A stretch of DNA of 64,000 bases, taken from an uncultured Bdellovibrionales bacterium (GTDB taxonomy: Bacteria; Patescibacteriota; Minisyncoccia; Moranbacterales; JAKLHP01). Location: NCBI GenBank assembly GCA_964440305.1, contig CAYTRS010000002.1:4048-68047 (forward strand), in the 5' to 3' direction. A model generated the notes under the pieces. The model did not search any database. It saw nothing but the letters and a program-made list of their open reading frames with translations, and was not told where the DNA came from. Shown here one piece after another: positions 13,428 through 46,370 of this stretch. How positions within the stretch are numbered: the stretch's first letter is position 1; the number at the start of each line of letters is the position of its first letter. Both the position numbers and the translations under genes were made by a program.

Positions 13428-13456
13428 AAAGCGCTTTTATTAAATTTATATTTTTT

Positions 13457-13793: not shown

Positions 13794-13799
13794 AATATT

Positions 13800-14150: not shown

Positions 14151-14170
14151 ACGAATATTTATAAGATTAA

Positions 14171-14371: not shown

Positions 14372-14382
14372 AAATTTATTTT

Positions 14383-23746: not shown

Positions 23747-24230
23747 AAAATAAAATCATTTTATCCTTTTACTGAATTATATCAAAAAAATATACTTAAA
23801 GCCAGTCGAGATAATGCCAAAATTCGTCCAGATTTTGGTTCACGGGCGATTTTTATTCCACACTCGGACAAGATACCCTTTTAGTCGCACAAATTGCGAA
23901 ATTATCCCTATTTGTGATTTCATCTATTCTTCGGCTCAAAAGAGGCTTTATAGCGGTTATGAACAAGCATCAAATCATCCACTATTCCCTCTAGGATTTT
24001 ATCGTGTTTTTTATTCCATCCCTTAAGGCAAATGCTTTCTCTTACCAACTCCAATATCGTTGCCATTTGGATATGCAGATCATTATTTTTCATTTGAAAT
24101 TCCAGTTGTTTTTTTCGTTGATTACTCAAGGCTTTTACAGTTACCTGGTTAAAAAAATATACAAAAATGGTCTTCCGAACCGGACGACAATCCCTTTCGG
24201 AACTGCCCGATGACCCTTTCGGATCATCGA

Positions 24231-24277
24231 CTCACGTGAATAAGTGCCGGTCAGAAGACCGTTTTTATTCACGTGAG
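24231..24277. other. Long stem-loop (13-bp perfect stem, 21-nt loop with a nested 5-bp hairpin) in the divergent intergenic region
   Basis: ctcacgtgaataa (24231-24243) pairs with ttattcacgtgag (24265-24277); loop holds cggtc-agaa-gaccg; preceded by a direct repeat ccctttcgga x2 (24192-24223). Confidence 0.4.
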
Positions 24278-24538
24278 ATTTTCTATTGAGCCATGCCCGT
24301 GTACGAAGACATAAGTTTAGGCTATATTGTAAATCTATTCTATCGTTTTAAGTCGTATCGGTCAATTCAATTTTGGGTTTTTTCTTGTTGGACAAAATCA
24401 ATCTCTTTAAATTATCTTCCCCTTCCTAAGTCTCCACAATCCGGAAAACGCAGAGCAGAACGGAAAATTGGACCTTGACAAGCATTGAGAGCCCTGCTAA
24501 TGTAGTTATGTAATCTAATAATAAGCTAATATAATTAT

Positions 24539-28480: not shown

Positions 28481-30214
28481 TTACTTGCCTTTTTTAACAG
28501 CTTGTTCATTTAGTCTTTCAATGTATTTGATAACATTTTTTATTTTATCCCATCGCAAAACCTCATCAGTTATTTCGTTTGTATGCATTACCGGATTTCT
28601 TACCGGATTTATTTCTTTAGCATCATTATTCAAGCCTTTTTGATTTTTTTTCTTTTTATTCTGAACTTTATGTATTTTCATGTCTATGATCCCGGCTAAG
28701 CCACAAAGATCTAAATAATTCAAATAACTTTCATTCTTAATGATTTTTCCTTTCAGGGCGTGCCTCTCTTCGTCTTCTTCTCTGAATTTCTTTATCATAT
28801 TAAGACTATCCAAAACATCTTTTTCCTCTTCCACTGACACATCTAAATCGCCTTCCTCAATACCTTTTATTTTTATGTATTCTCTAAAAATATTTTCAAG
28901 GATGAAAAGATCCTGATAAACAAGGGTGTTTTTGTAAGAGAGCAACTTGAGTCTATTTTTTAATTTCTTCTTTGCGTCACTGTCACTAATGGTTGCATTC
29001 AACTTATCTTGAAAATCTTTCTCGCGTCGATTTCGACTCTCTTCCATCCTCACCTCGTACCCAGGTCTGGAATCTTGGTCTATATCAACATCTTGTCGTA
29101 ACTCGCGCCTCCACGGAGTCCAATCTTGTACTATCGTGAATAAGATCTTATTTAGTTCTTTCAAAAATTCTTGATACAAAGGATCACTTTTGATAATCCC
29201 TTCGCGAGAACTTGTAAATCTATCAATTTTCTCATCCTCAAATCCATCGACGTGAATTTCTCCATATAAATATTCTTCGGTAACCGTTTGTCTCGTCACC
29301 TCTTCAAAAATATCTTCCTGCCTCAAGCGACCATTAGTAAACAAGTTAACACTTGCCTTAAAATCGCCCTTGGAACCCCTGAGGAGTATTTGCTTAGCGT
29401 GTTCAACAGAAGCAACAAATCCTTTTATTTGAATCTCTTTTCCATCAAATTTAAAAGAAGTATCTTTGATAGTTTTCTCTCTTTTTAAATTTTTATACCT
29501 GTCTGCAAATCGTTTGTCTTTTGTCCCAATATACCAAATAAACTGAGTATTGGTGTTTAGCTCCTCCAGATCCTTTAGTGTTACTGGTTTATCATTTACC
29601 TTTATAACAAATGAGTCGCCTTTTTTTAGGCTAAAAATAAAATTAAATTGAGTGGCGAGATATTTTCTTATTACATCCTCACTATTGAGTCTTATGTTAA
29701 TCGTGTTGAAAATGATTTTCGTTCCACTCTTTTTGTTTGAAGGAAATAATTTATTTTTCTGATGGTCAGTCAAATTCTCAAGTAAATAGTTACCGCGTTT
29801 TTTAATTTCATCATCAAGTTCAGTGTTGTTTATAATCCCCCCCGTGGTTTCTAATCCACTCTTTTTCGATACTATCGTTACCTTATCGGAAATGGACAAC
29901 ATGGCTAATTTACCTATACCTTTTCTGCCAATTACTTTGCGTTTTGATTTATTGTCTTTGTCATCCCGTCTTGAATATCCAACATTTAAAAACTTGCCCT
30001 GAAAGTCATGGGAATCCATTCCCTTGCCATTGTCTTCAACCACGAGTTGATTTTTACTGATTGTTACTTCGACAACCTTTGCTTCCGCATCCCAGGCGTT
30101 CGAAATAGCCTCTGCGATAACGGTTGCGAAACTCCTATAGAGACCTCTTCCCAAATGGTTTAGAACCTCAAGAGAGAACTCGAACTTAAAAGATTCATCT
30201 TGTACTTCTTTCAT
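28481..30214 (-). CDS. GHKL (HATPase_c_3/MORC-like) ATPase with C-terminal HEPN-like RNxxxH motif; putative effector partner of the adjacent m5C methyltransferase
   Basis: Bergerat-fold motifs: N-box EAISNAWDA, G1 VEDNGKGM, G2 GRKGIGKLA. C-terminal …NPVRNPVMHTNEITDEVLRWDKIKNVIKYIERL contains R-N-x3-H within 30 aa of the end (HEPN-like). Overlaps the Dcm gene by 20 nt. Confidence 0.6.
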   Translation of the reverse strand: MKEVQDESFKFEFSLEVLNHLGRGLYRSFATVIAEAISNAWDAEAKVVEVTISKNQLVVEDNGKGMDSHDFQGKFLNVGYSRRDDKDNKSKRKVIGRKGIGKLAMLSISDKVTIVSKKSGLETTGGIINNTELDDEIKKRGNYLLENLTDHQKNKLFPSNKKSGTKIIFNTINIRLNSEDVIRKYLATQFNFIFSLKKGDSFVIKVNDKPVTLKDLEELNTNTQFIWYIGTKDKRFADRYKNLKREKTIKDTSFKFDGKEIQIKGFVASVEHAKQILLRGSKGDFKASVNLFTNGRLRQEDIFEEVTRQTVTEEYLYGEIHVDGFEDEKIDRFTSSREGIIKSDPLYQEFLKELNKILFTIVQDWTPWRRELRQDVDIDQDSRPGYEVRMEESRNRREKDFQDKLNATISDSDAKKKLKNRLKLLSYKNTLVYQDLFILENIFREYIKIKGIEEGDLDVSVEEEKDVLDSLNMIKKFREEDEERHALKGKIIKNESYLNYLDLCGLAGIIDMKIHKVQNKKKKNQKGLNNDAKEINPVRNPVMHTNEITDEVLRWDKIKNVIKYIERLNEQAVKKGK

Positions 30215-31247
30215 ATTCTTTTATATGCTCTTTAATCGCCTTACCTATTATGACCCCCAGTTGTGGAGGCACTGCATTTCCTATGTGACGACACAGCTGA
30301 GTCATCGGTAAATTCCCGAAATCATACGAAACGGGAAATGTTTGCAACATTGCTCCTTCCCTCAAAGAAATCGCCCTATCCTGCTCCGGATGTCCGAAGC
30401 GACCCGATCCGTAACTGGCAAATTGCGTCGTGATTGTGGGAGAGACTTCATTCCATCGCATGCGACCGTAGACCGATGTATATGTTTGACCGCTGTCTTT
30501 CTTGTAACATTCAGGTAACAATTTTTTATCCCAATCCTTCCAAGAGCCGCCCGGCTTGGATTGGTTGATTCTCTTCATATTAGTTTCGGAAAGACTTTTG
30601 GCTTGATGCATCGGATCTTTTTTGTCCTTTTGCCCGGCTTTCAGTTTCGGTAATTTTTTTATTATATCACCCACCGTAACATAATTTTCTTTCGAATGTG
30701 TTTCTTTGGGGACTTTGATTTCCCCAAGCCGCGAGGCAAGCAATATGAGACGGCTTCTGTTTTGCGGCACTCCGTAATCAGGTGCATACACAACCTTGTA
30801 ATCAACCTTATATCGCATTTCTTCTAATCTCTTCACGAAATTTTCAAAGACATCCTCTTTTGTCACGCCGCGCACATTTTCCATCGATACCAAATCCGGC
30901 TTTACGACTTCAATCGCTCGCACGAAGTGATCCAACATATTCCACCTTTCATCCTTACCTTTCTTTCGCTGCTTGAATGCATGCGATGAAAACGGCTGAC
31001 ATGGCGCGCATCCTACCAAAACTTTGTAACTGTCCTTGGAAAACATTTTTTTCAACTCCTTGAAATCGTACTTTGAAACATCGGCTAATATGAATTCCGC
31101 TTTGTTGTTTTTTTTATAGGCGACGGCACAAGACTCGTCATTGTCAAGACCGGCCAAAACATCAATTCCCGCCTTTTTCAGACCATAGGTAAGTCCGCCT
31201 ATGCCGCTGAACAAATCTATTGCTTCTATTTTTGTTTTATTTCTCAT
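30195..31247 (-). CDS. DNA (cytosine-5)-methyltransferase
   Basis: Motif I DLFSGIGG, motif IV GCAPCQPFS, motif VI ENV, C-terminal GNAVPPQL (motif X). Confidence 0.85.
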   Translation of the reverse strand: MRNKTKIEAIDLFSGIGGLTYGLKKAGIDVLAGLDNDESCAVAYKKNNKAEFILADVSKYDFKELKKMFSKDSYKVLVGCAPCQPFSSHAFKQRKKGKDERWNMLDHFVRAIEVVKPDLVSMENVRGVTKEDVFENFVKRLEEMRYKVDYKVVYAPDYGVPQNRSRLILLASRLGEIKVPKETHSKENYVTVGDIIKKLPKLKAGQKDKKDPMHQAKSLSETNMKRINQSKPGGSWKDWDKKLLPECYKKDSGQTYTSVYGRMRWNEVSPTITTQFASYGSGRFGHPEQDRAISLREGAMLQTFPVSYDFGNLPMTQLCRHIGNAVPPQLGVIIGKAIKEHIKEYERSTR

Positions 31248-31330
31248 TGATGATTGTTTTTAATTTTGTGACTACTTGCCATTTTAGGTTCAAACTCTTA
31301 CCTTCTTTAATTTTACTCTTAATCGGTCGC

Positions 31331-31456
31331 AGAGTAAAGAAAAACGGCCCGTATTTCGTCAAATTTCGCCCACAGGGGCGACTTTCGCGTCGAAAGGGTA
31401 TGGAAGTGCCAATATGCCAGAAACCGGAGTAAACCACTCCGGTTTGGCTGATTTCA
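31331..31456 (-). repeat. Conserved intergenic element copy 1 (upstream of the Dcm/GHKL operon), with extra hairpin ccggagtaaaccactccgg
   Basis: agtaaagaaaaacggcccgtatttcgtcaaatttcgcccacaggggcgactttcgcgtcgaaagggt is homologous to sequences at 35876-35935 and 42625-42700; internal hairpin cgccc-acag-gggcg. Confidence 0.55.
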
Positions 31457-31558: not shown

Positions 31559-32671
31559 TCATGCCTTTTTTATGGCAGACTCAATTAAATCATCGAAAGA
31601 TAGTTCGCCTTTTTTATAGGCGTCAAATGCAGCATCAAGTTCTTTATTTGTAAGAAATCCGTCATATCTAAGTTTTGGAACTGAATCAAAATTATTCTTC
31701 TTGGCTACAACTTTCATAACTTGTCTATTAAATTCATGAATCAAATATGATCTCATTGTATTTAAAAACTTTTTGTATCTCATGACTCTATATACATCAT
31801 AATATTGAGTCATTTTTAAATTATTTCCTTCTGTAAGGTAATGGAAGATAGTTCTTATCTTACTTTTTGCAAGATCATATTTTCTATTTTCGTCTGCATA
31901 GGCTACATATCTTGTTTTTTCAACAGAAAGCGCATGATCATCAGGATCCGCTCCGCTTTTAGCCTTATCCAAACCGAAATCCCAGAATTTTTTTATTTGC
32001 TTTAAATATTTCAAACTCGCTTTTGCTGGAGAATCGCTTGAAATAGGATATTTGCAATAAAAAACTTCTTCTGGCAAAAAGCTAACTTTTCTTGGGATTT
32101 CCTTGTCGCCGTATCCTTTAAAGTAATTCTTATTGGTAAAATAATAAGTTATAATACTATACTTCTGTAAATATTCAGCAATATGTCCATTTCTTTTTTT
32201 GATTTTCATTGTAGAATCACGCAAATAATCAAAATCTACTGGAAGGACATACTTATTGCTCTTAACATCAATCTCATCCCAGCATGTTCTATAAAAAGAA
32301 ATACCAGTGACCATGAGTTGATAAGCAATCATATTTAAAAACCCTCCAAGATCATCACCATTCCCATATAAATTGTCTCGGTATCGGGAATATTTATCAG
32401 TAAAATATTTTTCTAAATCTTCTTTTATTGTTAGGTTGTCACATTCAAATGAAAAATAATCTCTTTCATGCGTTATATATCCTGGTCTATCTGAAACTGG
32501 CACATCGCGAAGTGGAAATAATGAATTTCTTATAAACATTGTTTCGTTAAATAAGCCCATGGAATCACGAGAAGCAGCTTCTAGCCTAGAGTAGCCCTTG
32601 ATATAGCTCAAGAATGGATCGTCGATTGAGCTTCCATCTTTATCAAATATAGTTTTATTTCTTCGTTTCAT
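31559..32671 (-). CDS. Hypothetical protein (370 aa), third gene of an uncharacterized three-gene operon
   Basis: ORF track; 17-nt overlap with the upstream gene; no recognisable motif. Confidence 0.5.
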   Translation of the reverse strand: MKRRNKTIFDKDGSSIDDPFLSYIKGYSRLEAASRDSMGLFNETMFIRNSLFPLRDVPVSDRPGYITHERDYFSFECDNLTIKEDLEKYFTDKYSRYRDNLYGNGDDLGGFLNMIAYQLMVTGISFYRTCWDEIDVKSNKYVLPVDFDYLRDSTMKIKKRNGHIAEYLQKYSIITYYFTNKNYFKGYGDKEIPRKVSFLPEEVFYCKYPISSDSPAKASLKYLKQIKKFWDFGLDKAKSGADPDDHALSVEKTRYVAYADENRKYDLAKSKIRTIFHYLTEGNNLKMTQYYDVYRVMRYKKFLNTMRSYLIHEFNRQVMKVVAKKNNFDSVPKLRYDGFLTNKELDAAFDAYKKGELSFDDLIESAIKKA

Positions 32672-35126
32672 TGATTTTTGATAATACGGTTACAAAGCTT
32701 AAAACCTCCTCTCTTCTTTTTATAAATTCTACAAATTTTTCAACGCTATCATCTTCAATATTTCCAAGTCCATAACTAACTTCTCTGATAAATTTACTAG
32801 GATGATTGGCTACTTCCTGCATTCCAGAATAAAACCTAACATGGTCATATGTTTTTGGCATCTCAAGTATTTTATGATGAATCTGCGTATACCAATTGTG
32901 ATATTTCGTGGTTTCCCACTGGATAAGCTTAGTGGTTAAGTCAATGCCTCCAATGTTTCTTGCGTCTCCAAGGATTTCTATGGATTTTATGAAATAGCCT
33001 GGTCTGTAAGATTTTTCAAAAATTTTCACATACTCAATGAGCATTTTTTTATTTTGCTCCAATTCTGAGTGCAGAAACAAAAATCCTCCCAAGATAACTA
33101 CTAATCGATTTCTTAATATAAACATATCCGTGTTTGTTTCATTCACATTAAGCACGGATATTATTAGCGATAATATCTTGGATAGCTCTACAAATAATGC
33201 CTTTCTTTTTTTAAGAATAGATTGAAAAATAATCTTTTCTATTTCTTCAAGCAACTCGAGTTTAATGAGTATTTCTTTTGGGATGGTAAGTATGTAGGCA
33301 GCACACTTCGAAATGTCCTGAGAAAATTCATTTGCAAGAGTGAATTTATTTAGGTAAAACATTCTACTAATCCACTCGAATCTGATCTTTATAAAATGCG
33401 CACAATTTTCGTAATCTTTCTTCTTGATTAAATCAATTATGACATCTTCTTGATGATGAAGCATTTCACTAAAAAACTTCTTAAAAAGTTCTTTTTCTCT
33501 GCTTTTGACGCTACCCAACATTTCTTCCTCAAGATTTTTTACAGGAGTCATGATTTTGCCTTCGCACCCTTGTTCCAATTCCAAACGTTTCCAATAATCT
33601 ATAAATTGTTCATAGAAAATTGATGGCAGATCAATATTTTCTACAAAACCCTGACCATTTGAAAGCTTTCCATCATTACCAACTAAGGATCTGATGATCT
33701 CCTTGTATTTCTTGTATTTGAACCCGTCTATCAATACCAGTCCTGTTGTAAAATATGCATTCAAATAATCGTTTAGGTCTTCTTGCTTGGTTATATTTTT
33801 ATACAAATCCAAAAATGATCTAAAGAATTTATCATAAGTTTCAATTTCTTGATTTTCATAGATTCCATAAATCTTTTTCTGTCCACTATTAGTTTTTGAA
33901 TAATCACCACTTAATATGGTTTGATAAGATTTGATAACATGACTTAACAAATCTGGATTACTATTTATTGCATGGGATTGAATCTTTTGAAAAAGGGTAA
34001 AAGCATTATCTTCAAACCATGATAAATCTGGTTTTGGTAAAAATAACGGTCCAGTTCCTTGTAGCTCATAGTTGAGTTTTATAATGCTTTCAGATGAGCT
34101 ACCAGATTTTGCCAAATCGTGCTTTTGGTAAAACCACCATCCATTCTCCCTATCTATATACTTTTTATTTCCCGCGTACTCCGTAATGACAAAAGCAAGC
34201 ACAGTTGGAGCATAGATCGCATCACTATTGTTTTTAATTTTCAACAAATCATCAAATAAATTTTCGAGTAATCGCAACAATTTTCTAGTATTATTTCGAG
34301 CGTGCTGTACAAGGCTCCAACTTTTATACTTATAGGAAGATTTATCAGAAGCCGTTTTTATATTATCTCGAATATCACTCCAAAGTCTTTCAAATAGATG
34401 CTTGGGCTTAATTGTAACTATATAATGACTTTTGAAAATTATAATTCCCAATAAAGAAATAACGACCATCAAGCAAGCTATGGCAAAGCTAAATATTGGT
34501 TCAGGATAATCAAAAAATTCTGTTCGCAATAAAACAGAGATAGCCAGTAAATCAGTGAACACTAAAAGTTTAAAATAAAAGCTACCGACAGTTTCCTCAT
34601 TAACATAATCAGATACTTCCGATGAATATTTATCTGTACTTAATTGGAAGCCAACGGCGTATAAGGCAAATAATAAACCGAGAACCGCCGATATTGCACC
34701 AATAGATATCTCCAAAAACAACTCGATAAAATCTCGCCCAGGCACTCTGATGAAAGACAGGCTATTTGAAAATCCTTGTAATTGATCAAGTCCGATTAGC
34801 CATGCGGATGTTTTTGAAATAAGCAAGTCAATCGCAAATGAAACAACTATAAAAATAATAATCAGTGATATGATTTCACCCGACAACCTCACTATTTCAT
34901 TAACAATTTTATACTCCTTAATGCGCAATTGAAGTTTGAAGCTACTGACCCTAAAGCCCTCCTTCCTTTTTTGAAATTGATAATAAATAAATCCAAACAA
35001 TCTTGAAAAAAATTGATAAAATATATTACCATTTTCATCGCCAGGGTATGAATACTTTTTCTTTCTCTTTATCAGTCTGCTGATAAAGAGGAGCAAGAGG
35101 TATTTTATTGTTTTTAGATATCGCAT
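32655..35126 (-). CDS. Hypothetical 823-aa protein: N-terminal about 4 TM helices plus large helical cytoplasmic domain
   Basis: Hydrophobic segments about aa 75-230 (IISLIIIFIVVSFAIDLL, IGAISAVLGLLFALYAV, LLAISVLL, IACLMVVISLLGIIIF); rest K/E/L/I/F-rich helical; no NTPase or nuclease motif seen. Confidence 0.5.
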   Translation of the reverse strand: MRYLKTIKYLLLLFISRLIKRKKKYSYPGDENGNIFYQFFSRLFGFIYYQFQKRKEGFRVSSFKLQLRIKEYKIVNEIVRLSGEIISLIIIFIVVSFAIDLLISKTSAWLIGLDQLQGFSNSLSFIRVPGRDFIELFLEISIGAISAVLGLLFALYAVGFQLSTDKYSSEVSDYVNEETVGSFYFKLLVFTDLLAISVLLRTEFFDYPEPIFSFAIACLMVVISLLGIIIFKSHYIVTIKPKHLFERLWSDIRDNIKTASDKSSYKYKSWSLVQHARNNTRKLLRLLENLFDDLLKIKNNSDAIYAPTVLAFVITEYAGNKKYIDRENGWWFYQKHDLAKSGSSSESIIKLNYELQGTGPLFLPKPDLSWFEDNAFTLFQKIQSHAINSNPDLLSHVIKSYQTILSGDYSKTNSGQKKIYGIYENQEIETYDKFFRSFLDLYKNITKQEDLNDYLNAYFTTGLVLIDGFKYKKYKEIIRSLVGNDGKLSNGQGFVENIDLPSIFYEQFIDYWKRLELEQGCEGKIMTPVKNLEEEMLGSVKSREKELFKKFFSEMLHHQEDVIIDLIKKKDYENCAHFIKIRFEWISRMFYLNKFTLANEFSQDISKCAAYILTIPKEILIKLELLEEIEKIIFQSILKKRKALFVELSKILSLIISVLNVNETNTDMFILRNRLVVILGGFLFLHSELEQNKKMLIEYVKIFEKSYRPGYFIKSIEILGDARNIGGIDLTTKLIQWETTKYHNWYTQIHHKILEMPKTYDHVRFYSGMQEVANHPSKFIREVSYGLGNIEDDSVEKFVEFIKRREEVLSFVTVLSKINETKK

Positions 35127-35130
35127 GACC

Positions 35131-35838
35131 TTATTTCAATCTAGCATATTCTTCTTTTAATCTGATTAACATCTCCGGATAATACCGAAAAAAGCTTTGT
35201 ATCTTTTTGATATCGCCGTTGGAAATTTTCCCTTTTTTCATACTGTCAAACTCCAATGTATTTATATCGAACCGCGCATCAATATTTCTTTGCTTTGAAA
35301 TTACATGGAAATGTGCAGGCGGGTGGTCTTTCGGATGCAACTCCATTCTTAAATCACCGGCAGCAGCTATAAATCTTTTTATTTTATAGACCGTGCCATC
35401 CGGCAACACCTGCGTCGAATCAAGGTGTACTTCCAATAAGTCCGCGACACTCCTCTTTAATCTTGGCGCGATTAACTCATCCCTCGTGTTATCCTTGGTA
35501 TTGGTTTTGTCGTCGAGAGTGAGAGCTAGCTCTTTCGGATCAAGATATTTCTTGCAATCTGACCATATAGTGTTTTTATTTCCCTTTTTAAAATTTTCAA
35601 ATTCGGATTCGACTTCAAATAATCCCACAACGACACCAAGCGCGTATTCACCGTCTTTTAATCGAAATACTTCTCCGTAAAAAACAGTGCCGACATGTTT
35701 GTCCCAATCATGCTCTATGAGATAAGGAATATATTTGCTATTGATCTGGTCGGCCATACCCTCAAGCGCATTTTTGGACATACGTTCTCCATGCCTGTCC
35801 ACATGGGTAGTGCTCATTATTCCAGTAATAATCCTCAT
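35131..35838 (-). CDS. Fusion protein: unknown N-terminal domain (~150 aa) plus C-terminal DUF4160 (HxPxHFH) domain
   Basis: C-terminal LRMELHPKDHPPAHFHVISKQRNIDARFDINTLEFDSMKKGKISNGDIKKIQSFFRYYPEMLIRLKEEY matches the DUF4160 pattern (…RDHNPPHFHA…G…I…L…W). 5-nt gap to the next gene. Confidence 0.5.
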   Translation of the reverse strand: MRIITGIMSTTHVDRHGERMSKNALEGMADQINSKYIPYLIEHDWDKHVGTVFYGEVFRLKDGEYALGVVVGLFEVESEFENFKKGNKNTIWSDCKKYLDPKELALTLDDKTNTKDNTRDELIAPRLKRSVADLLEVHLDSTQVLPDGTVYKIKRFIAAAGDLRMELHPKDHPPAHFHVISKQRNIDARFDINTLEFDSMKKGKISNGDIKKIQSFFRYYPEMLIRLKEEYARLK

Positions 35839-35875
35839 TTTTTATAAATGTCAAATCAATTAACCTTAGCTAGGC

Positions 35876-35935
35876 TCTATTTCGCCAAATTTCGCCCACA
35901 GGGGCGATTACCACCCGAAAGCGTCCGAACATGCT
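35876..35935 (-). repeat. Conserved intergenic element copy 2 (upstream of the three-gene operon)
   Basis: ctatttcgccaaatttcgcccacaggggcgattaccacccgaaagcg: 33/34-nt identity with copy 1 core. Confidence 0.55.
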
Positions 35936-35977
35936 TATTTACTGGAAATCGGTCCAAACTCGCTCAAAGCCAAAAAG

Positions 35978-36715
35978 CTATCTTATCGAATTCCAATTAT
36001 CCAAAAAGTAGTCCATCTCATGATCCATATTCCCGAGGTATACGTGATTGTCTCTGAATTTTATATTCACGCGATAGCGTTTGCCTTGTCCCACTTCCAA
36101 TATTGCTTTTTCATGTACCTTCTTTTCTATCTCAAGAAAAGGCAAGATTAAAAAATGATTCTGTTTTTCTCCATGTAAAACAAAAATGTAAAATACACTG
36201 CCACTATTGTGACGTTCGAATGATACTTTTCTGATATCGAAAACATAGGCATCAAAACGGTTTAGGTTGGAGGTTTTCACTTGTATTCCAAAAAGTTGAG
36301 TTCCTTTTACTGCCACGATATCCATTCCGACATCTACGCTCATAATACTGGCGTTGAAACCGCGAAAAAGCAGTTCGCTGCAAACCAAGTGCTCGCCGCC
36401 TTTCCCTGTGAATCCACTTTCTACAACCAGTCTCTCTTCCGCCTCTTTTTCGGCTTCTATAATTTTCGGCGTTTGCTTTACCTCTTTTTTATCATGATTA
36501 AGCGTAAAAGTTCCGGGTGCGGTTTTCATGAAATCCGAGCCCTTGCCCTTGTTTTTAATATCTACCGTAATTTGGGCGTTCATTGAAGCTTCAGGCGTTG
36601 CTCCTTCGGTCTCTAAAATTCCCGATTCCAAAGCCAACCGCGTGATTTCGGTGTAATGCAAAGACTTTCCTGCTTTTTTCAGCACTTTGATTGCTGATTG
36701 TTTGAATGTGTTCAT
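35978..36715 (-). CDS. Mrr_N/HARE-type winged-helix plus Hjc-like PD-(D/E)xK nuclease fusion (putative restriction-type endonuclease), last gene of the Type I R-M operon
   Basis: N-terminal SAIKVLKKAGKSLHYTEITRLALESGILETEGATPEASMNAQI (Mrr N-terminal-like wHTH). C-terminal GEHLVCSELLFRGFNASIMSVDVGMDIVAVKGTQLFGIQVKTSN resembles archaeal Hjc (…ER.L…L…GF.A.R…PDI.A.K……IE.K.S) with E…D…(I/V)QVK. 3-nt gap to hsdR. Confidence 0.5.
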   Translation of the reverse strand: MNTFKQSAIKVLKKAGKSLHYTEITRLALESGILETEGATPEASMNAQITVDIKNKGKGSDFMKTAPGTFTLNHDKKEVKQTPKIIEAEKEAEERLVVESGFTGKGGEHLVCSELLFRGFNASIMSVDVGMDIVAVKGTQLFGIQVKTSNLNRFDAYVFDIRKVSFERHNSGSVFYIFVLHGEKQNHFLILPFLEIEKKVHEKAILEVGQGKRYRVNIKFRDNHVYLGNMDHEMDYFLDNWNSIR

Positions 36716-36718
36716 ATT

Positions 36719-39700
36719 TTATTCTGTAAATTTACCACCCGATATATCAAAGAATCTTTCAAAGAAATTCGTGAGTTTCGTTAAAACACTCTCACGCTTT
36801 TTGGAACGCTCGCCGGTCGGAGAAAAGCGGGATACAGGAGGCAAGACCTTAGTAATAGCAGTACCGGTTGTCGCTACACTACCGTCACGGAAAGCATTTT
36901 TTACAAACGCATAAGTTGCATCGTGATCCAAACCTTCATTGTCAATAATTTTTTCAAGCTCCTCAATCTTTTTCTTATTCACGAATTTCTGCCAATCATC
37001 ATCAACCACCGAATGAATATCAAGTGAAGTGATAAACTGATTAATGAGATCTTTCTTATTGCGTAGTTCAATGCTTGAGTCTATTGCTTTATTAATATCA
37101 ACCAAAATCTCGCGATTTTTATTGTGGTCTTCGTGATATTTCTTGATGAGTCCCAACACAAAGTCAATATTTATTTCTACCTGCTTGATAAGCTCCATCT
37201 CAAACACTAAATCATCGTTAATATTTTCCTGATCAATGTCTGCATTTTTACGAAATTCATTGTACAGATCAATGTACATACTATGATAATCTTGAATATC
37301 GCGCTCAGTTAAAATCTCATTGCCGGCAAACTCATCAAAAGTTGTCAAAATGTTACGAACTCGTAATATCCCGCCATAGAGCTTGATAAAATCTTTCTGT
37401 TTTTGTTCGCCAATGATTTGCTCACCGACTGGGAATTTTTCCAGGAGCTCTGCCACTAAACCTGTATATCCGCGCACTTCCTTGTTACCGTCTTTGTAGC
37501 CGTTATAATACTCCTCGTATGATTTAAGAAGTACAATACCGCCCGCTTCTTTATCGCCAAATAGAGCTATGGATTCGTTTGTCGCTTTCTCTAGGTTACG
37601 GAAGCAAACAATGTTTCCAAAGGTCTTTACGCTATTTAAAATACGATTGGTACGCGAAAATGCCTGCAAGAGTCCATGCAGTCTCAAGTTTTTATCCACC
37701 CAAAGCGTGTTCAGCGTTGTGGCGTCAAAGCCGGTCAAAAACATATTGACCACAATCAGGACATCAATCTCGCGGTTTTTCACTCTCAAACTCACGTCTT
37801 TGTAATAATTTTGAAACTTATCCGATGAAGTATCAAAAGACGTTCCAAACATCGCATTGTAATCAATAATTGCATTATCAAGAAAATCTCTTGAACTCAC
37901 ATCGAGTCCGCTCGTATCTTCTGAGTTTTCGTCTATCATTCCATCGGCGTCTTCATCATTCACGCCGAAGCTATAAATTGTTGCTATCTTGAGTTGTTTG
38001 TCACTCGGTACATTTGTGAGTTGTTTTTTAAATTCGGCATAATACTTTTTTGCGACATCAATGGACGAAACCGCAAATATAGAATTAAAGCCTGCTAATC
38101 TTCTGTCCTTCAGTTTATAAAAACTGTTACGCTTGGTCTTTTGGTCAAAATGTTCGCGAATGTAGCTGACGATATTTGCTAAGCGCTCTGGCGAAGCAAG
38201 TACCGCCTCTCGATCGATATCACTGACTTTCTTATCTTCAATATTTTCAGCTTCACGAACAGTAGAAACATAATCCACTTTAAACGGCAAAACATTTTTA
38301 TCAGCGATGGCATTTACAATGGTGTAGGTATGCAGTTTTTCACCAAAGGCTTGCTCGGTGGTTTTCAAGTCCGGTCGTCCGCTAGAAGACGCGTTCATGG
38401 CAAAAATTGGTGTACCGGTAAAACCAAAGAGGTTGTAATTCTTGAATGTTTTGGTAATAGCGGCGTGCATATCGCCAAACTGTGAACGGTGACATTCGTC
38501 AAAGATAAGCACTACATGCCCATCAAAAATAGTATGCCCGGAATTGCGCCCAATAAAACGATCGAGTTTCTGGATAGTGGTGATGATAATTCGTGCGTTC
38601 GGATTTTCCAATTGTTTCTTCAAAATCGCCGTACTGGTATTACTATTGGCCGCACCTTTCTCAAACTTATCGTATTCTCGCATGGTCTGATAGTCCAAGT
38701 CCTTGCGGTCAACCACAAACATCACCTTATCCACATACGTCAATCTACTCACGAGCTGGGCAGTCTTGAAACTGGTCAAAGTTTTTCCCGATCCGGTCGT
38801 GTGCCAAATGTACCCTCCAGCCTCAACCGTGCCAAGTTTCTTGTAGTTCGTGCTGACTTCAATGCGACTCAATATTCTCTCTGTCGCCACTATCTGATAT
38901 GGTCGCATCGCCAAAAGCTGTCGTTCAGTGGTAAAAACACAATAGCGGGTCAAAATATTTAAAAGCGCGTGTTTGGCAAAAAATGTCTTGACAAAATCCA
39001 TCAGATCCGTAATTGGTCGATTGGTAGCATCTGCCCACCAACTGGTAAATTCAAAACTGCTGCTAGAGCGCTTACCTTTTTTCACCGCACCCTCACTGGC
39101 TTCTTTGATATGCTCCGAACGGACGGTGTTGCTATAATATTTTGTATGCGTGCCATTGGAAATTATAAATAGTTGAACATATTCAAAAAGCCCCGCCGAA
39201 GCCCAAAAACTTTCGCGTTGATAACGGTTAATCTGATTGAATGCCTCGGCAATAGCGACTCCACGGCGCTTGAGCTCGACATGCACCATCGGCAAACCAT
39301 TAACAAGAATCGTTACATCATAGCGATTAGCGCGTTGCCCATCTTCAGTCGCATATTGATTGATGACCTGCAAGCTATTGTCGTGAATGTTGTCTTTTTT
39401 TATAAGATACACATTTTTGACTGTTCCGTCCTCGCGCGTCAGGTTTCTAATATGATCTTCTTGGATCGTTGCTGTTTTTTCTGCAATGCTTTGGTTTGGA
39501 TTGGCAATTTCACTTGCAAAGAAATTCTCCCATTCAGCATCAGCAAAAGTAAACCCATTGAGTTTCTCCAATTGCAAACGGAGGTTCGATACCAAATCAG
39601 ATTCAGATGTGATAGCTAGATATTCGTACGCTTGCGTTTCGAGTTGTTTTATAAAAGCACGCTCCAGATCCGCCTCGCTTTGATAAGAAACACCATCCCG

Positions 39701-39793
39701 TACCCGATCTGCGAGCTTATAATACTCAGCGACAACGGTGCTTTGAGGATTTTCTGCAACTAGATTGTATTTTTTATTATTTGGCATATTCAT
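36719..39793 (-). CDS. hsdR: Type I restriction enzyme R subunit (HsdR)
   Basis: 1024 aa; SF2 helicase motifs TTGSGKTLTSF (Walker A), DECHRSQ (DEAH); HsdR_N-like N-terminus; operon with hsdM/hsdS. Confidence 0.9.
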   Translation of the reverse strand: MNMPNNKKYNLVAENPQSTVVAEYYKLADRVRDGVSYQSEADLERAFIKQLETQAYEYLAITSESDLVSNLRLQLEKLNGFTFADAEWENFFASEIANPNQSIAEKTATIQEDHIRNLTREDGTVKNVYLIKKDNIHDNSLQVINQYATEDGQRANRYDVTILVNGLPMVHVELKRRGVAIAEAFNQINRYQRESFWASAGLFEYVQLFIISNGTHTKYYSNTVRSEHIKEASEGAVKKGKRSSSSFEFTSWWADATNRPITDLMDFVKTFFAKHALLNILTRYCVFTTERQLLAMRPYQIVATERILSRIEVSTNYKKLGTVEAGGYIWHTTGSGKTLTSFKTAQLVSRLTYVDKVMFVVDRKDLDYQTMREYDKFEKGAANSNTSTAILKKQLENPNARIIITTIQKLDRFIGRNSGHTIFDGHVVLIFDECHRSQFGDMHAAITKTFKNYNLFGFTGTPIFAMNASSSGRPDLKTTEQAFGEKLHTYTIVNAIADKNVLPFKVDYVSTVREAENIEDKKVSDIDREAVLASPERLANIVSYIREHFDQKTKRNSFYKLKDRRLAGFNSIFAVSSIDVAKKYYAEFKKQLTNVPSDKQLKIATIYSFGVNDEDADGMIDENSEDTSGLDVSSRDFLDNAIIDYNAMFGTSFDTSSDKFQNYYKDVSLRVKNREIDVLIVVNMFLTGFDATTLNTLWVDKNLRLHGLLQAFSRTNRILNSVKTFGNIVCFRNLEKATNESIALFGDKEAGGIVLLKSYEEYYNGYKDGNKEVRGYTGLVAELLEKFPVGEQIIGEQKQKDFIKLYGGILRVRNILTTFDEFAGNEILTERDIQDYHSMYIDLYNEFRKNADIDQENINDDLVFEMELIKQVEINIDFVLGLIKKYHEDHNKNREILVDINKAIDSSIELRNKKDLINQFITSLDIHSVVDDDWQKFVNKKKIEELEKIIDNEGLDHDATYAFVKNAFRDGSVATTGTAITKVLPPVSRFSPTGERSKKRESVLTKLTNFFERFFDISGGKFTE

Positions 39794-40952
39794 TGAATGT
39801 TAGAAGCTTTCCTTGATAGTATTCATATTGTTGTCTGCGAGCAGAAAGTTCTGCTGGCAAACCAATTGAGATGTCGTTCACCAGCGCTTCAAGTTTATCA
39901 AGTATAGCCACAACGCTGTTCTGATGTGATAGATCAGGAATTTGCACAGTCGCTTTCTTTAAAATATCGTATGAAATAAAGGGCTGTGAACCTGCATGTG
40001 CTTGTGATCTAAAATCTTGTAAAAGTAAAAGATAATAACCATACCTTGGATTAATATTTGTCTTAATTTTACAGATTACTCCGTTATATGTAACAAAGTG
40101 TTTTCCCTTAACCCAATTAACAATACCCGCATATGCGCCAATATGGCCTATTACAGGCGCATCCTCACTATTATATTGATCATGTTGACCAGCTAAACGA
40201 TTACCACCATATACTGGATATTTTCCTCCTGTGTTCGGGATAGTATTGCCTTCGCCATATTGAAAATCGTAAATATCACCTAATGCTTTCCAATCCCCCT
40301 TATTGCTAGACAGCATTAAATCTTTTCTATAATACTCATACTGTTTCTTTCTTGCTTCTAGCTCTGCTTCTAGCTCTGCTTCTAGCTCTGTGAAATTATT
40401 AAGTACCTTAATAATTTCCTCTTGCACCGCAATCGGCGGGAGAGGTATTATAATTTTTGCAAAACGCTTTTTTGAAACATTAAATCGCGTTACACCACTT
40501 GCAGTTTTTGCAATTTGTTTTCTCATCTGTTCATCCCTAAATAAATATTTTGAAAATTCTGGTAAAAGCAGATTGGTATTATGAAAACGAAAACCAAAAC
40601 AGAAACTATTTAGATACAATGAACCATCGGCTTCTTTAGTTAAAACAGATGACATTCCGCACTCGTTCGGTGTTTCGGACGATCCTGTAAATAACACGTC
40701 CCCGTATTCAATTTTGTTCTGGTTTTCATCTTTACTCACCTTTACAAAAGTATTAATATCAGTATTGACTGCAATATTAGAAAAGATATTCATGTAGGTA
40801 ACAAATTTTGCGTTACCATTACTAAAATCATCCTTGCTCTTTCCAGACAGTCCGCCATAAAAATCGCCGAGTTTTCCCAACTCCTTAAACTCCACCCCAT
40901 TCGGGCAGAGTTCGGCGATCAGCTTTTCGATTTTGCTTACATGTTTAGTCAT
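39777..40952 (-). CDS. hsdS: Type I restriction-modification specificity subunit (HsdS), two target-recognition domains
   Basis: Start placed at the in-frame ATG at 40950-40952 (MTKHVSKIEKL…), 1 nt after the hsdM stop. Central conserved coiled-coil ELEAELEAELEARKKQYEYYRKDLM and C-terminal …RRQQYEYYQGKLLTF. Confidence 0.8.
   Translation of the reverse strand: MTKHVSKIEKLIAELCPNGVEFKELGKLGDFYGGLSGKSKDDFSNGNAKFVTYMNIFSNIAVNTDINTFVKVSKDENQNKIEYGDVLFTGSSETPNECGMSSVLTKEADGSLYLNSFCFGFRFHNTNLLLPEFSKYLFRDEQMRKQIAKTASGVTRFNVSKKRFAKIIIPLPPIAVQEEIIKVLNNFTELEAELEAELEARKKQYEYYRKDLMLSSNKGDWKALGDIYDFQYGEGNTIPNTGGKYPVYGGNRLAGQHDQYNSEDAPVIGHIGAYAGIVNWVKGKHFVTYNGVICKIKTNINPRYGYYLLLLQDFRSQAHAGSQPFISYDILKKATVQIPDLSHQNSVVAILDKLEALVNDISIGLPAELSARRQQYEYYQGKLLTFNEYAK
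40351..40390 (-). repeat. 12-bp tandem repeat (GAGCTAGAAGCA)x3 encoding (ELEA)x3 in the HsdS central spacer
   Basis: Plus-strand cttctagctctg repeated three times at 40361-40390. Confidence 0.7.
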
Positions 40953-40953
40953 A

Positions 40954-42564: not shown

Positions 42565-42624
42565 ATTAACAACGCGTCTCTCGTCATTTCAATATTTTAA
42601 TAATACTCCCGAACGACGATAAAG

Positions 42625-42700
42625 TAAAGAAAAACAGCCCTTATTCGGCCAAATTCGGTCCAACGGGCGATTTTTATGCCGAAAGGGTGCAACTACCCCG
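42625..42700 (-). repeat. Conserved intergenic element copy 3 (upstream of hsdM)
   Basis: agtaaagaaaaacagcccttattcggccaaattcggtccaacgggcgatttttatgccgaaagggtg aligns with copy 1. Confidence 0.55.
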
Positions 42701-42747
42701 AAGCCGGGATTCTTTCTGCCACGCCCTCAATTTTTCCTTCAGCCCTT

Positions 42748-46192: not shown

Positions 46193-46370
46193 AAGCGCTC
46201 AATGCCACCGCCCTCCTGATCTTCTTGCACATTAGAATTTTTTTTATGATTTTCTTTTTCATTTCTTTTTTCGTTTAGGTTTTGATAAAAAATAATCCCT
46301 CGACCTGGAATTATAGCCTGCCTGAATTATATCAAAATCAGGTAAAGAAAAAGTAAAGGAATTGTAAAGA

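What the first reader, a model, noticed from the sequence alone, without database searches (positions are those of the whole stretch)
31331..31456. Conserved ~70-120 nt intergenic element present upstream of all three defense operons (copy 1 of 3)
The sequence agtaaagaaaaacGGCCCgtatttcgtcaaatttCGCCCacagGGGCGactttcgcgtcgaaagggt at 31339-31400 recurs with high identity at 35876-35935 and 42625-42700. Each copy lies 45-100 nt upstream, in the minus/sense orientation, of the first gene of a defense module: Dcm-GHKL, the three-gene operon, and hsdM-hsdS-hsdR-mrr-like. I found it nowhere else in the window.

It contains a conserved hairpin (cgccc-acag-gggcg). In copy 1 it has an extra strong hairpin, ccggagtaaaccactccgg.

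Possible roles: a shared promoter or operator that co-regulates the defense genes; a terminator/insulator unit; a small RNA; or a cassette-boundary recombination site, making the island a modular, attC-like array of swappable defense cassettes.
Basis: seen in the sequence. Interest (0 to 1): 0.65.

Follow-up and report, generated by a model that had tools for sequence, protein, structure and literature searches.

The report
Repeated promoter-linked element in defence hotspot
A conserved DNA block of about 50 bases, fixed just upstream of a promoter, marks the entrance to and the internal joints of a variable anti-phage gene island in Moranbacteria (candidate phyla radiation); it is real and conserved across this lineage, and is most likely a protein-binding control and junction site, not an RNA or a generic genome repeat.

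Summary
The repeat is real. A profile built only from copies in other genomes finds four hits in the window: the three reported copies and a degenerate fourth at 23820-23859. The window comes from a Candidatus Moranbacteria (Patescibacteria) chromosome.

In ten related lineages one copy lies about 55 nt after the stop codon of a conserved 654-aa gene (response regulator, kinase, 654-aa gene). Each lineage has different defence genes downstream, so this is a hotspot entrance. Two more distant relatives have no defence genes there and lack the element.

The element is a roughly 50-bp core, cTTTCG-N8/9-TCGCCC-N3/4-GGRCnnAATTTGGnnnAAWA. It is as conserved as the neighbouring coding sequence. In 13 of 15 distinct copies a -35-like TTTACT follows 12-13 nt later (9 in one copy), then 17 nt, then a TAnnnT -10.

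There is no conserved RNA fold, no Rfam match, no integrase, no attC signature and no sign of a genome-wide repeat. One relative (L009) has a single chimeric copy where the window has c3 and c1 flanking 11.3 kb. A second genome shows the same two-copy architecture.

Best reading: a promoter with an upstream protein-binding site, reused as the joint where defence modules are added or lost. The binding protein and any regulation are inferred, not shown.

The parts
42642..42688 (-). Copy c3, the primary (A-type) core. Sense strand: ACCCTTTCGGCATAAAAATCGCCCGTTGGACCGAATTTGGCCGAATA. It lies about 55 nt after the stop codon of the conserved 654/680-aa gene.
   Evidence: E 2.4e-19; same position in ten related lineages
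42600..42628 (-). Promoter-like site of c3: TTTACT, 17 nt, TATTAT. It would drive hsdM-S-R plus HARE-HTH.
   Evidence: conserved in relatives although the downstream genes differ
42696..42708 (-). Hairpin CCCGGCTTCGGGG after the 654-aa gene. It is terminator-like, is replaced by different hairpins in relatives, and is not part of the shared core.
35878..35924 (-). Copy c2, the internal (B-type) core. Sense strand: ACGCTTTCGGGTGGTAATCGCCCCTGTGGGCGAAATTTGGCGAAATA.
   Evidence: E 1.2e-11; 91-93% identical to B-type copies in other genomes (L004, L018) whose flanks are unrelated
35925..35977 (-). B-type left arm. It runs from the stop codon of the HARE-HTH gene to the core and is shared with L004 and L018.
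31352..31399 (-). Copy c1 core. Sense strand: ACCCTTTCGACGCGAAAGTCGCCCCTGTGGGCGAAATTTGACGAAATA.
   Evidence: E 6.8e-19
31310..31338 (-). Promoter-like site of c1: TTTACT, 17 nt, TAAAAT. It would drive the Dcm gene and the GHKL restriction-enzyme-like gene.
   Evidence: the same right arm is found in relative L009
31425..31443 (-). Strong hairpin CCGGAGTGGTTTACTCCGG followed by TTTC. It is a terminator-like end of the three-gene operon.
   Evidence: -24 kcal/mol for the region
23815..23859 (-). Copy c4, degenerate. Sense strand: AAATCGCCCGT-GAACCAAAATC-TGGACGAATTTTGGCA, with three repeat units instead of two.
   Evidence: D5; E 4e-4
23758..23785 (-). Promoter-like site downstream of c4 (TTGATA, 16 nt, TAAAAT), ahead of the SLFN_AlbA_2/HATPase_c_4/HTH gene.
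42748..44790 (-). Conserved 654/680-aa gene (named 'terpene cyclase/mutase family' in source records). It is the left anchor of the hotspot and is preceded by an OmpR-type response regulator (46371-47042) and a histidine kinase (44702-46192).
35978..42564 (-). Module 1, between c3 and c2: hsdM, hsdS, hsdR and a HARE-HTH gene.
31559..35838 (-). Module 2, between c2 and c1: three genes of 235 aa (DUF4160), 823 aa (DUF2254) and 370 aa. There is no PADLOC match.
   Evidence: the homologous operon sits in another genome without the element
28481..31247 (-). Module 3, after c1: Dcm methyltransferase plus a GHKL protein that matches type II restriction enzyme models.

Best explanation
The element works as DNA, not RNA. 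It is a compact intergenic module made of a roughly 50-bp conserved core, then 12-13 bp, then a sigma-70-type promoter (TTTACT, 17 nt, TAnnnT). The core is cTTTCG, an inner palindrome TCGCCC-N3/4-GGGCGA, and two 10-bp direct units around an invariant AATTTGG.

The primary copy sits immediately after a conserved chromosomal gene cluster (response regulator, kinase, 654-aa gene). From there it drives whatever defence operon occupies the first slot of a defence-gene hotspot. The core, at roughly -50 to -100 from the predicted start site, is most likely the binding site of a regulator, so operons that carry a copy would share that control.

Because the module is repeated in direct orientation, it also serves as the joint at which defence modules have been inserted, lost or exchanged. 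This could be insertion with duplication of the module, Campbell-type integration of a circle, or deletion between copies.

Shown: repetition, lineage-wide conservation, hotspot position, promoter-like hexamers at fixed spacing, absence of an RNA fold, and one recombinant genome.
Inferred: protein binding, regulation, and the way the duplications arose.
For: 1. There are four copies in the window, all upstream of and in the same orientation as defence-type operons.

2. In ten lineages, with 654-aa proteins 67-88% identical to the window's, one copy follows that gene. It precedes ten different defence contents: type I R-M variants, SNF2/MTase/ResIII, DUF5655 plus EcoRI-type MTase plus GmrSD, RadC plus hsd, PLD-SNF2 plus MmeI-like, CTD10/MC6/DUF2326, Dcm plus GHKL, and an AbiJ-like gene.

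3. Relatives L040 and L042 have the same gene cluster, no defence genes downstream and no element.

4. Mean pairwise identity per region:
- coding sequence: about 0.8
- hairpin after the stop codon: 0.44-0.65
- core: about 0.8
- -35: 0.82
- from about 10 nt past the -10: 0.16-0.4

5. In 13 of 15 distinct copies TTTAC[TA] or TTTAAA lies 12-13 nt after the core (9 nt in one copy) and TAnnnT lies 17 nt further on. The spacers fall into unrelated sequence classes. The tool scan calls the same sites in c1 and c3.

6. Indels of 1 nt inside the core rule out coding.

7. No RNA structure is supported.

8. Evidence for the joint role:
- L009 has a single copy. It matches c3 on the left (93% over 414 nt) and c1 plus Dcm on the right (94% over 350 nt). 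The two matches overlap by about 65 nt inside the element.
- Contig JAKLFF010000001 has a primary copy and a B-type copy 12.9 kb apart on one strand, around other defence genes.
Against: - No binding protein has been identified.
- Sub-motifs of the core do not occur at other promoters in about 260 kb of related sequence, so this is not a broad regulon site.
- The adjacent OmpR-type regulator has no such motif at its own promoter. It also exists without the element in L040 and L042.
- Copies c2 and L018 lack the TTTACT promoter. The c2 promoter is unresolved.
- Many defence operons in the same islands have no copy, for example in L034.
- Presence of the element is confounded with phylogeny. The two negative genomes are also the most distant.
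- Promoter hexamers are consensus matches only. No transcription data were available.
Confidence: 0.5

Rival explanations
1. The element is a site-specific recombination site, as in an integron-like platform. The A-type copy beside the 654-aa gene would act like attI with a resident promoter. Internal B and C-type copies would act like attC. A recombinase encoded elsewhere would insert and excise the defence cassettes.
For: - Copies are in direct orientation at module boundaries in two lineages that carry unrelated cassettes.
- L009 has a chimeric single copy.
- In both array genomes the primary copy is A-type and an internal copy is B-type. B-type copies are 86-93% identical across genomes while both flanks differ.
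- The core is roughly dyad-symmetric, with inner and outer inverted motifs.
- The variable region starts just past a resident promoter, as at attI/Pc.
Against: - No integrase, resolvase or transposase is found in the scanned ORFs of the 64-kb window or within 10 kb either side of the hotspot in relatives.
- No paired RYYYAAC/GTTRRRY sites.
- The central spacer is 3 nt in c3 and 4 nt in c1 and c2, and its sequence differs. That is hard to reconcile with strand exchange between them.
- The right half of the palindrome is degenerate in c3-type copies.
- Homology breakpoints to the right of the core are graded rather than at one nucleotide.
- The three-gene cassette in L045 and the 97%-identical HARE-HTH gene in L031 have no element beside them.
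- Many operons inside the islands lack a copy.
Confidence: 0.15
2. The copies are passive scars. [quoted passage not shown] The repeated sequence would simply be the resident promoter region, with no function of its own beyond the promoter.
For: - All criteria of Furuta et al. 2010 (PMC2853133) are met. R and M genes lie inside the insert. The inserts are 6.7 and 11.3 kb. The repeat is longer than 30 bp. A related genome has a single copy. No mobility genes are present.
- Patescibacteria are widely thought to take up DNA (my own knowledge, not tested here).
Against: - The part that is shared between copies is the core upstream of the promoter, not the promoter itself. c2 and L018 keep the core and have lost TTTACT.
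- The core is conserved at coding-sequence level across lineages whose neighbouring intergenic DNA has diverged.
- B-type copies in different genomes are more alike than the primary copies of those same genomes. This argues for transfer or constraint, not local duplication.
- c1-c3 identity is 78%. The published examples have far higher repeat identity (about 90% or more; 44/46 to 417/423 in the rows read).
Confidence: 0.17
3. The element is a structured RNA: a small RNA, a cis-regulatory leader, or a 3' UTR or terminator element of the upstream gene.
For: - Several short palindromes are present: CTTTCG/CGAAAG, CGCCC/GGGCG and GAAATAnG/CnTATTTC.
- One terminator-like call in c3 overlaps the 3' part.
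Against: - The RNAalifold consensus energy is -0.9 kcal/mol on the sense strand and -7.2 on the antisense strand, where only the inner hairpin folds.
- In the named helices 75.0% of cells are paired, against 74.3% in shuffles. Covariation is reached by 149 of 500 shuffles.
- Single-sequence z-scores range from -0.2 to -1.9.
- There is no Rfam match even at E up to 10.
- The core lies upstream of the predicted promoter and downstream of a terminator-like hairpin.
Confidence: 0.05
4. The core is the operator of the adjacent two-component system. The OmpR-type response regulator encoded two genes upstream would bind the tandem 10-bp units (GGCGAAAT-TTGGCGAAAT) and switch the defence operons in response to a signal sensed by the kinase. 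This is a specific version of the best explanation.
For: - The response regulator, kinase and 654-aa gene precede every primary copy.
- The direct repeats have a 10-bp period. c4 has a third unit. That geometry is typical of OmpR/PhoB-family sites (my own knowledge).
Against: - No similar motif is conserved at the regulator's own promoter.
- The same gene trio exists without the element in L040 and L042.
- The repeat units are the less conserved part. The invariant positions (TTCG, CGCCCGT, AATTTGG) do not form a simple two-unit repeat.
- Secondary copies lie up to 19 kb away.
Confidence: 0.1
5. The element is a generic dispersed repeat (REP, BIME or MITE) that only by chance sits in this island.
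For: It is short, intergenic, partly palindromic and multi-copy in the window.
Against: - A scan of 185,579 species genomes found only one exact-pattern match per genome, in three Patescibacteria MAGs.
- No further copies occur in about 260 kb of related sequence outside hotspot islands.
- There are no terminal inverted repeats.
- Every copy found is in the same orientation as, and upstream of, a defence-type gene.
Confidence: 0.03

Closest known systems
Insertion of restriction-modification gene complexes with long target duplication (Nobusato and Kobayashi; Furuta, Abe and Kobayashi 2010, PMC2853133)
   Same: - R-M genes are flanked by direct repeats longer than 30 bp, with no mobility gene.
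- A related genome carries a single copy that aligns with both repeats. In the window versus L009, c3 and c1 flank 11.3 kb.
   Different: - Here the repeated unit is not an arbitrary target. It is one specific element conserved across lineages and reused at least three to four times in one island.
- It is also found as an internal joint in another genome around unrelated systems.
- The repeats are only 78-97% identical over 30-67 nt.
Integrons (attI plus Pc promoter, attC-bounded cassettes), including integrons that store phage-defence cassettes (bioRxiv 10.1101/2024.07.02.601719; PMC12614218)
   Same: - A fixed entry point with a resident promoter sits next to a conserved gene.
- An array of co-oriented defence modules is separated by a recurring, partly palindromic element of 50-100 nt that starts right after stop codons.
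- The entry copy and the internal copies are of different sub-types.
   Different: - No intI gene.
- No R''/R' core sites.
- Sequence conservation rather than structural conservation.
- Modules are multi-gene operons, usually with their own promoter.
- Not every module has a copy.
- The central spacer varies in length.
Defence-island hotspots between conserved core genes, such as chromosomal hotspots in Enterobacteria, Pseudomonas and Vibrio, and the P2/P4 prophage hotspots (my own knowledge, not tested here)
   Same: A conserved flanking gene cluster has a different set of defence systems at the same locus in each lineage.
   Different: As far as I know, those hotspots are defined by their flanking genes. 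No conserved non-coding element has been described that is duplicated at internal joints and tied to a promoter.
Tandem-repeat operators of winged-helix or OmpR/PhoB-type and CtsR-type regulators (my own knowledge)
   Same: Two (three in c4) direct units with a 10-bp period lie upstream of a -35 box. GGCGAAA-N3-GGCGAAA has the geometry of heptad-N3-heptad operators.
   Different: - The sequence differs from any operator I know.
- The most invariant positions lie outside or between the units.
- No cognate regulator has been identified.

Membership tests
Integron attC/attI | An integron integrase (intI, tyrosine recombinase) next to the array | tested here: not met
   No integrase or recombinase domain was found in the window ORFs scanned. 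None appears in the precomputed Pfam lists within 10 kb either side of the hotspot in relatives.
Integron attC/attI | Paired core sites R'' (RYYYAAC) and R' (GTTRRRY) at the ends of each attC | tested here: not met
   none in c1, c2, L004 or L018 on either strand. c3 has a single unpaired GTTGGAC.
Integron attC/attI | Conserved folded single-strand hairpin (structure conserved, sequence variable) | tested here: not met
   The sequence is conserved and the structure is not. There is no covariation, fold z-scores are -0.2 to -1.9, and the right palindrome arm is degenerate in c3-type copies.
Integron attC/attI | The element stays attached to its cassette when the cassette is found elsewhere | tested here: not met
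   The three-gene cassette in L045 is 81% identical in nucleotide sequence from the start codon to 86 nt past the last stop, and has no element on either side. The HARE-HTH gene in L031 (97% identical) has no element after it.
Insertion with long target duplication (criteria of PMC2853133) | R and M genes lie inside the insert, and the insert is shorter than 20 kb | tested here: met
   hsdM, hsdS and hsdR lie between c3 and c2 (6.7 kb) and between c3 and c1 (11.3 kb).
Insertion with long target duplication (criteria of PMC2853133) | Direct repeat longer than 30 bp that aligns with a single copy in a compared genome, with no mobility genes | tested here: met
   c1-c3 align over 67 nt at 78%. 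L009 has one copy that aligns with both, with continuous flanks. No mobility genes were found.
Insertion with long target duplication (criteria of PMC2853133) | The repeat is an otherwise unremarkable, locus-specific target sequence | tested here: not met
   The same element recurs in ten lineages, at internal joints in another genome, and with unrelated flanks.
Sigma-70-type promoter | -35-like and -10-like hexamers 16-18 nt apart, upstream of a gene on the same strand | tested here: met
   c1 has TTTACT-17-TAAAAT and c3 has TTTACT-17-TATTAT. The pair is kept in 13 of 15 copies with unrelated spacers. It is not found for c2.
Sigma-70-type promoter | Transcription starts about 7 nt downstream of the -10 hexamer | not testable with these tools
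   No transcriptome data were available.
Structured RNA family (Rfam or new) | Match to a curated covariance model | tested here: not met
   At gathering threshold the whole window gives only LOOT at 24186-24323. Scans of c1 and c3 at E up to 10 give only weak hits that look like chance.
Structured RNA family (Rfam or new) | Conserved secondary structure with compensatory changes | tested here: not met
REP/BIME/MITE dispersed repeat | Many copies dispersed over the genome | tested here: inconclusive
   The complete source genome was not available. The evidence points against this family: one exact-pattern match per genome in three MAGs, and no copies outside islands in about 260 kb of related DNA.
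REP/BIME/MITE dispersed repeat | Terminal inverted repeats or target-site duplication (MITE) | tested here: not met
   8-11 of 20 terminal positions match, which looks like chance level (no control was run).
OmpR/PhoB-type response-regulator operator | Tandem direct repeats with a 10-11 bp period near the -35 box | tested here: met
   The units GGGCGAAAT and TTGGCGAAAT are present, and c4 has three units.
OmpR/PhoB-type response-regulator operator | The same motif at other targets of the regulator, such as its own promoter, and co-occurrence of regulator and site | tested here: not met
   No conserved motif lies upstream of the regulator gene. The regulator is present without the element in L040 and L042.
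Phage or integrative-element attachment site | Overlaps a tRNA or tmRNA gene, or is present in a phage or plasmid record | tested here: not met
   The window has no tRNA. There is no true match in IMG/VR, INPHARED phages or PLSDB plasmids.

The most novel reading that the evidence does not exclude
Moranbacteria may carry a previously undescribed cassette platform for defence genes. A specific site of about 50 bp beside a conserved gene, with a resident promoter, would be the entry point. Sub-types of the same site would separate the stored modules. A recombinase or DNA-binding factor encoded elsewhere would move modules in and out at these sites. That factor could belong to the conserved terminase / ParB-methyltransferase block, which precedes the regulator-kinase-654-aa cluster in the element-bearing genomes whose upstream flank was recovered. 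This would be a functional analogue of an integron without IntI or attC.
Probability: 0.12. Interest if true: 0.8.

Novelty: new variant of a known kind. Interest (0 to 1): 0.5.

Why it matters
Candidate-phyla-radiation bacteria have tiny genomes and mostly lack CRISPR. How they acquire, organise and control their restriction and other defence genes is poorly known.

This element provides three things:
- A sequence marker for a defence hotspot in one of these lineages.
- A concrete candidate promoter and operator in organisms for which I know of few mapped promoters.
- A testable model in which one conserved non-coding module both expresses newly arrived defence genes and acts as the joint for adding and removing them.

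If a dedicated recombination or regulatory protein recognises it, that would be a new way of building defence islands. If not, it is still a clean natural example of 'insertion with long target duplication' that repeatedly reuses one functional sequence.

Tried and rejected
- **tRNA or tmRNA-derived attachment site:** the window has no tRNA.
- **Known RNA family:** none.
- **Conserved RNA fold on either strand:** none. This includes a long-range pairing of ACCCTTTCG with CGAAATA-GGG seen in the single-sequence folds of c1 and c3. L035 and L037 break it without compensation.
- **Sigma-54 or ECF-type promoter reading of the core:** judged by eye only. Spacing and key bases do not fit.
- **First promoter idea:** TTGNCG as -35 with TTTACT as -10. 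This was replaced by TTTACT as -35 plus TAnnnT as -10, which the scan tool and the comparative data support.
- **Regulon idea:** core sub-motifs do not occur elsewhere in about 260 kb.
- **Autoregulatory site for the neighbouring response regulator:** a look-alike (CGAAATTTGTC) upstream of the window's regulator gene is not conserved in relatives.
- **Phage attP, cos or pac site:** no true copy in 2.9 million viral contigs, 50,697 phage records or 72,556 plasmids.
- **Coding sequence:** 1-nt indels between copies.
- **MITE:** no terminal inverted repeats.
- **Chance hits:** eight of the eleven genome-scan hits (Verrucomicrobiota, Desulfobacter and others) match only the pattern, with no extended similarity.
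- **Missing data:** the locus for P0034 returned no DNA, so that lineage could not be scored.
Full report
**1. Observation**

The three reported copies are real. They lie on the minus (sense) strand upstream of minus-strand operons.

- A pattern that summarises them (TCGCCC-N3/4-GGRCSRAATTTGRCSRAATA) matches only 31352-31381, 35878-35907 and 42642-42670. None is expected in shuffles.
- To avoid circularity I built a profile from 12 copies found in other genomes only. In the window it finds c3 at 42620-42690 (E 2.4e-19), c1 at 31333-31401 (E 6.8e-19), c2 at 35868-35925 (E 1.2e-11) and a fourth, degenerate copy at 23820-23859 (E 4e-4). Everything else has E of 0.39 or more.
- Pairwise, c1-c2 are 97% identical over 30 nt and c1-c3 are 78% identical over 67 nt. 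c2-c3 are related only at profile level.
- The fourth copy (c4) has an extra 10-11-nt unit (GAACCAAAATC) inside the repeat part. It lies upstream of a SLFN_AlbA_2/HATPase_c_4/HTH gene.
- So 'nowhere else in the window' is wrong and 'high identity' is only partly right. The core observation stands.

**2. Surroundings**

The downstream genes are defence-type:
- c3: hsdM, hsdS, hsdR and a HARE-HTH gene.
- c2: three genes of unknown function (DUF4160-like 235 aa, DUF2254 823 aa, 370 aa), with no PADLOC match.
- c1: Dcm plus a GHKL protein that matches type II restriction-enzyme models.

Immediately upstream of c3 lie a 654/680-aa gene, a histidine kinase and an OmpR-type response regulator. No integrase, resolvase or transposase domain was found in any window ORF that I scanned. 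The window has no tRNA.

**3. Where else the element occurs**

- A degenerate pattern scan of one genome per species (185,579 species) gave 11 hits. Eight are chance matches with no extended similarity. Three are true copies, all in Patescibacteria/Moraniibacteriota MAGs, one per genome.
- A metagenome scan gave six more true copies.
- Source records name the 654-aa protein as coming from Candidatus Moranbacteria.
- Viral contigs, phage records and plasmids hold no true copy.

**4. A hotspot entrance**

I fetched the loci of homologues of the 654-aa protein.

In every lineage whose protein is 67-88% identical to the window's, one copy of the element lies about 55 nt after the stop codon (E 1e-12 to 1e-21). 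This covers L005, L009, L014/L031-33, L016, L019, L034, L035/36, L037, L038/39 and L044.

The genes that follow differ in each lineage:
- hsdMSR
- SNF2 plus N6/N4 methyltransferase plus ResIII
- DUF5655 plus EcoRI-type methylase plus GmrSD/HNH
- hsdR-M-S plus nSTAND
- RadC plus hsdMSR
- PLD-SNF2 plus MmeI-like methylase
- CTD10/MC6/DUF2326
- Dcm plus GHKL
- an AbiJ-like gene

Two more distant relatives (L040, 66%; L042, 47%) keep the regulator-kinase-654-aa trio. It is followed there by housekeeping or polysaccharide genes, and the element is absent. The element therefore belongs to the hotspot and not to the 3' end of the 654-aa gene. This contrast is confounded with phylogenetic distance.

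**5. Anatomy**

Alignment of 14 distinct copies gives this order in the sense orientation:
- The stop codon of the upstream gene.
- A hairpin that differs in sequence between copies, followed by TTTC.
- The shared core: AC(C/G)C-TTTCG-N8/9-TCGCCC-N3/4-GGRCnn-AATTTGG-nnnAAWA.
- 12-13 nt.
- TTTACT, then 17 nt, then TAnnnT.

Invariant positions are TTCG, CGC.C.T, GG.C, AATTTG and AA.A.

Mean pairwise identity along the primary copies:
- about 0.8 in the coding sequence
- 0.44-0.65 in the hairpin after the stop codon
- about 0.8 in the core
- 0.82 at the -35
- 0.16-0.4 from about 10 nt beyond the -10

The core is therefore under constraint comparable to the gene. The variable region begins at about the predicted transcription start.

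**6. Promoter**

The scan tool calls TTTACT-17-TAAAAT (31338-31310) for c1 and TTTACT-17-TATTAT (42628-42600) for c3. It calls TTGATA-16-TAAAAT for c4 and nothing for c2.

Across 15 distinct copies, 13 keep TTTAC[TA] or TTTAAA at 12-13 nt from the core (9 nt in L044) and a TAnnnT hexamer 17 nt further on. The spacers fall into unrelated sequence classes. Conserved hexamers with free spacers are the expected signature of a working promoter. The start sites remain inferred.

**7. Not an RNA**

- The RNAalifold consensus is -0.9 kcal/mol on the sense strand. On the antisense strand it is -7.2 kcal/mol, and only the inner hairpin folds.
- In the three palindromes I could name, 75.0% of cells are paired, against 74.3% in shuffles. 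Covariation is no better than shuffles (149 of 500).
- Single-copy fold z-scores are -0.2 to -1.9.
- Rfam has nothing, even at E up to 10.
- The right arm of the cgccc/gggcg hairpin decays in c3-type copies (GGACCG, GGACCA, GGACAA) while the left arm stays invariant. That is sequence conservation, not structural conservation.
- One-nucleotide indels between copies exclude a coding role.

**8. Joint between modules**

- Relative L009 (MAG JBAQNP01) matches the window continuously from the kinase through the 654-aa gene into the element (window 46181-42623). From the element it continues into c1's right arm and the Dcm gene (window 31398-29963; Dcm is 98% identical at protein level). The two matches overlap by about 65 nt inside the element. 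So L009 has one copy where the window has c3 and c1 around 11.3 kb.
- On contig JAKLFF010000001 the primary copy (about 260.48 kb) and a B-type copy (about 247.55 kb) lie 12.9 kb apart on one strand. Between them are PLD-SNF2, an MmeI-like methylase, nSTAND and FtsK-like genes. After the B-type copy come a methyl-directed restriction-enzyme-like gene and a PDC-S53 helicase. The array architecture is thus seen twice, with unrelated contents.
- The B-type copies (c2, L004 = L015 = L017, L018) share only 57-95 nt at 86-93% identity. Both flanks are unrelated.
- The element is not attached to particular cassettes. The three-gene operon occurs in L045 at 81% nucleotide identity, from its start codon to 86 nt past its last stop. 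There it sits behind an AAA_13 gene with no element on either side. The 97%-identical HARE-HTH gene of L031 is not followed by a copy. Several operons inside the island of L034 have none.

**9. Mechanism**

The best-supported reading is a DNA-level module. A protein-binding core at about -50 to -100 is fixed to a sigma-70-type promoter. It sits at the hotspot entrance, where it expresses the first resident operon. It has been duplicated at internal joints when modules were added.

The duplications fit 'insertion with long target duplication' as defined by Furuta et al. 2010 (PMC2853133; criteria read). They also fit Campbell-type integration of a circle that carries one copy. Deletion between copies would give the L009-type state.

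What binds the core is unknown:
- Its sub-motifs are not found at other promoters in about 260 kb.
- The obvious candidate, the neighbouring OmpR-type regulator, has the right kind of target geometry: 10-bp direct units, three of them in c4. But it has no such motif at its own promoter, and it exists without the element in L040 and L042.

A true site-specific system (integron-like) is not excluded but fails every membership test that I could run:
- No integrase.
- No RYYYAAC/GTTRRRY pair.
- No structural conservation.
- Central spacers of unequal length.
- Graded right-hand breakpoints.
- Cassettes found without the element.

**10. Novelty and score**

I found no description of this element. 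Literature searches were limited. It is absent from Rfam and from the phage and plasmid collections.

It combines three known themes: a defence hotspot, long target duplication around R-M genes, and an integron-like entry promoter. The specific form, in a little-studied phylum, is new, so I rate it a new variant of a known kind.

Interest is 0.5. The function remains inferred, and the most ordinary reading (a conserved promoter region reused by recombination) explains most of the data.

Noticed in passing
window 23815-23859 (-): A fourth, degenerate copy of the element with three 10-11-nt repeat units instead of two. It lies upstream of a SLFN_AlbA_2/HATPase_c_4/HTH gene (22352-23746).
   Followed up: yes
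window 24186-24323 (-): The only Rfam match above gathering score in the window: LOOT RNA (RF03000, 58.8 bits). It lies between the MarR-HlyD-MFS operon and copy c4. Its function is unknown to me, and a literature search found nothing useful.
   Followed up: partly
window 57877-63787 (-) and 4921-16242 (-): Phage-type genes, all on the minus strand.
- Upstream block: terminase large subunit (phrog_675, E 1e-103), a possible small subunit, ParB_N-N6/N4 methyltransferase and Dcm.
- About 41 kb further on: portal, major head, adaptor, tail, amidase and tail fibre.
- The hotspot, the two-component system and many housekeeping-type genes lie in between.

In relatives the terminase block directly precedes the response regulator. 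The two relatives that lack the element also lack this block. A possible link, such as a prophage remnant or a transduction platform, is unresolved.
   Followed up: partly
window 31559-35838 (-); L045 9289-13653: A three-gene operon (DUF4160-like 235 aa, DUF2254 membrane protein 823 aa, 370 aa). It has no PADLOC match and only 38 homologues of the 823-aa protein in 5.8 billion sequences, mostly from Patescibacteria plus one Scalindua. In L045 it follows an AAA_13 ATPase gene. It may be an uncharacterised defence system.
   Followed up: partly
window 35978-36715 (-); L014 9321-10058; L037 19113-19850: A HARE-HTH gene, 97% identical to its L014/L031 homologue, ends R-M operons of different kinds: type I here and SNF2/MTase/ResIII in L031. 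In L031 and L037 it is followed by an SMC-like gene of 961-992 aa that is absent from the window. This suggests module shuffling with a breakpoint right at its stop codon.
   Followed up: partly
L021-L030 (strains with an identical 654-aa protein), hsdS gene: The specificity subunit differs in length between strains of the same species (391, 397 and 418 aa called, against a 430-aa ORF in the window). The neighbouring genes are the same. This looks like ordinary hsdS target-recognition-domain variation.
   Followed up: no
window about 46200-46370; L021 8451-8570: A 38-47-aa ORF is called between the response regulator and the kinase in most relatives fetched, including the distant L040 and L042. 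It may be a small peptide partner of the two-component system.
   Followed up: no
window 35815-35860 (-): The start of the first gene after c2 is ambiguous: 235 aa from the first ATG at 35838, or 228 aa from the second. Different strains are called differently. No convincing promoter was found between the core and the first ATG. A TTGACA-18-TATTAC pair would imply a near-leaderless transcript for the second ATG.
   Followed up: partly
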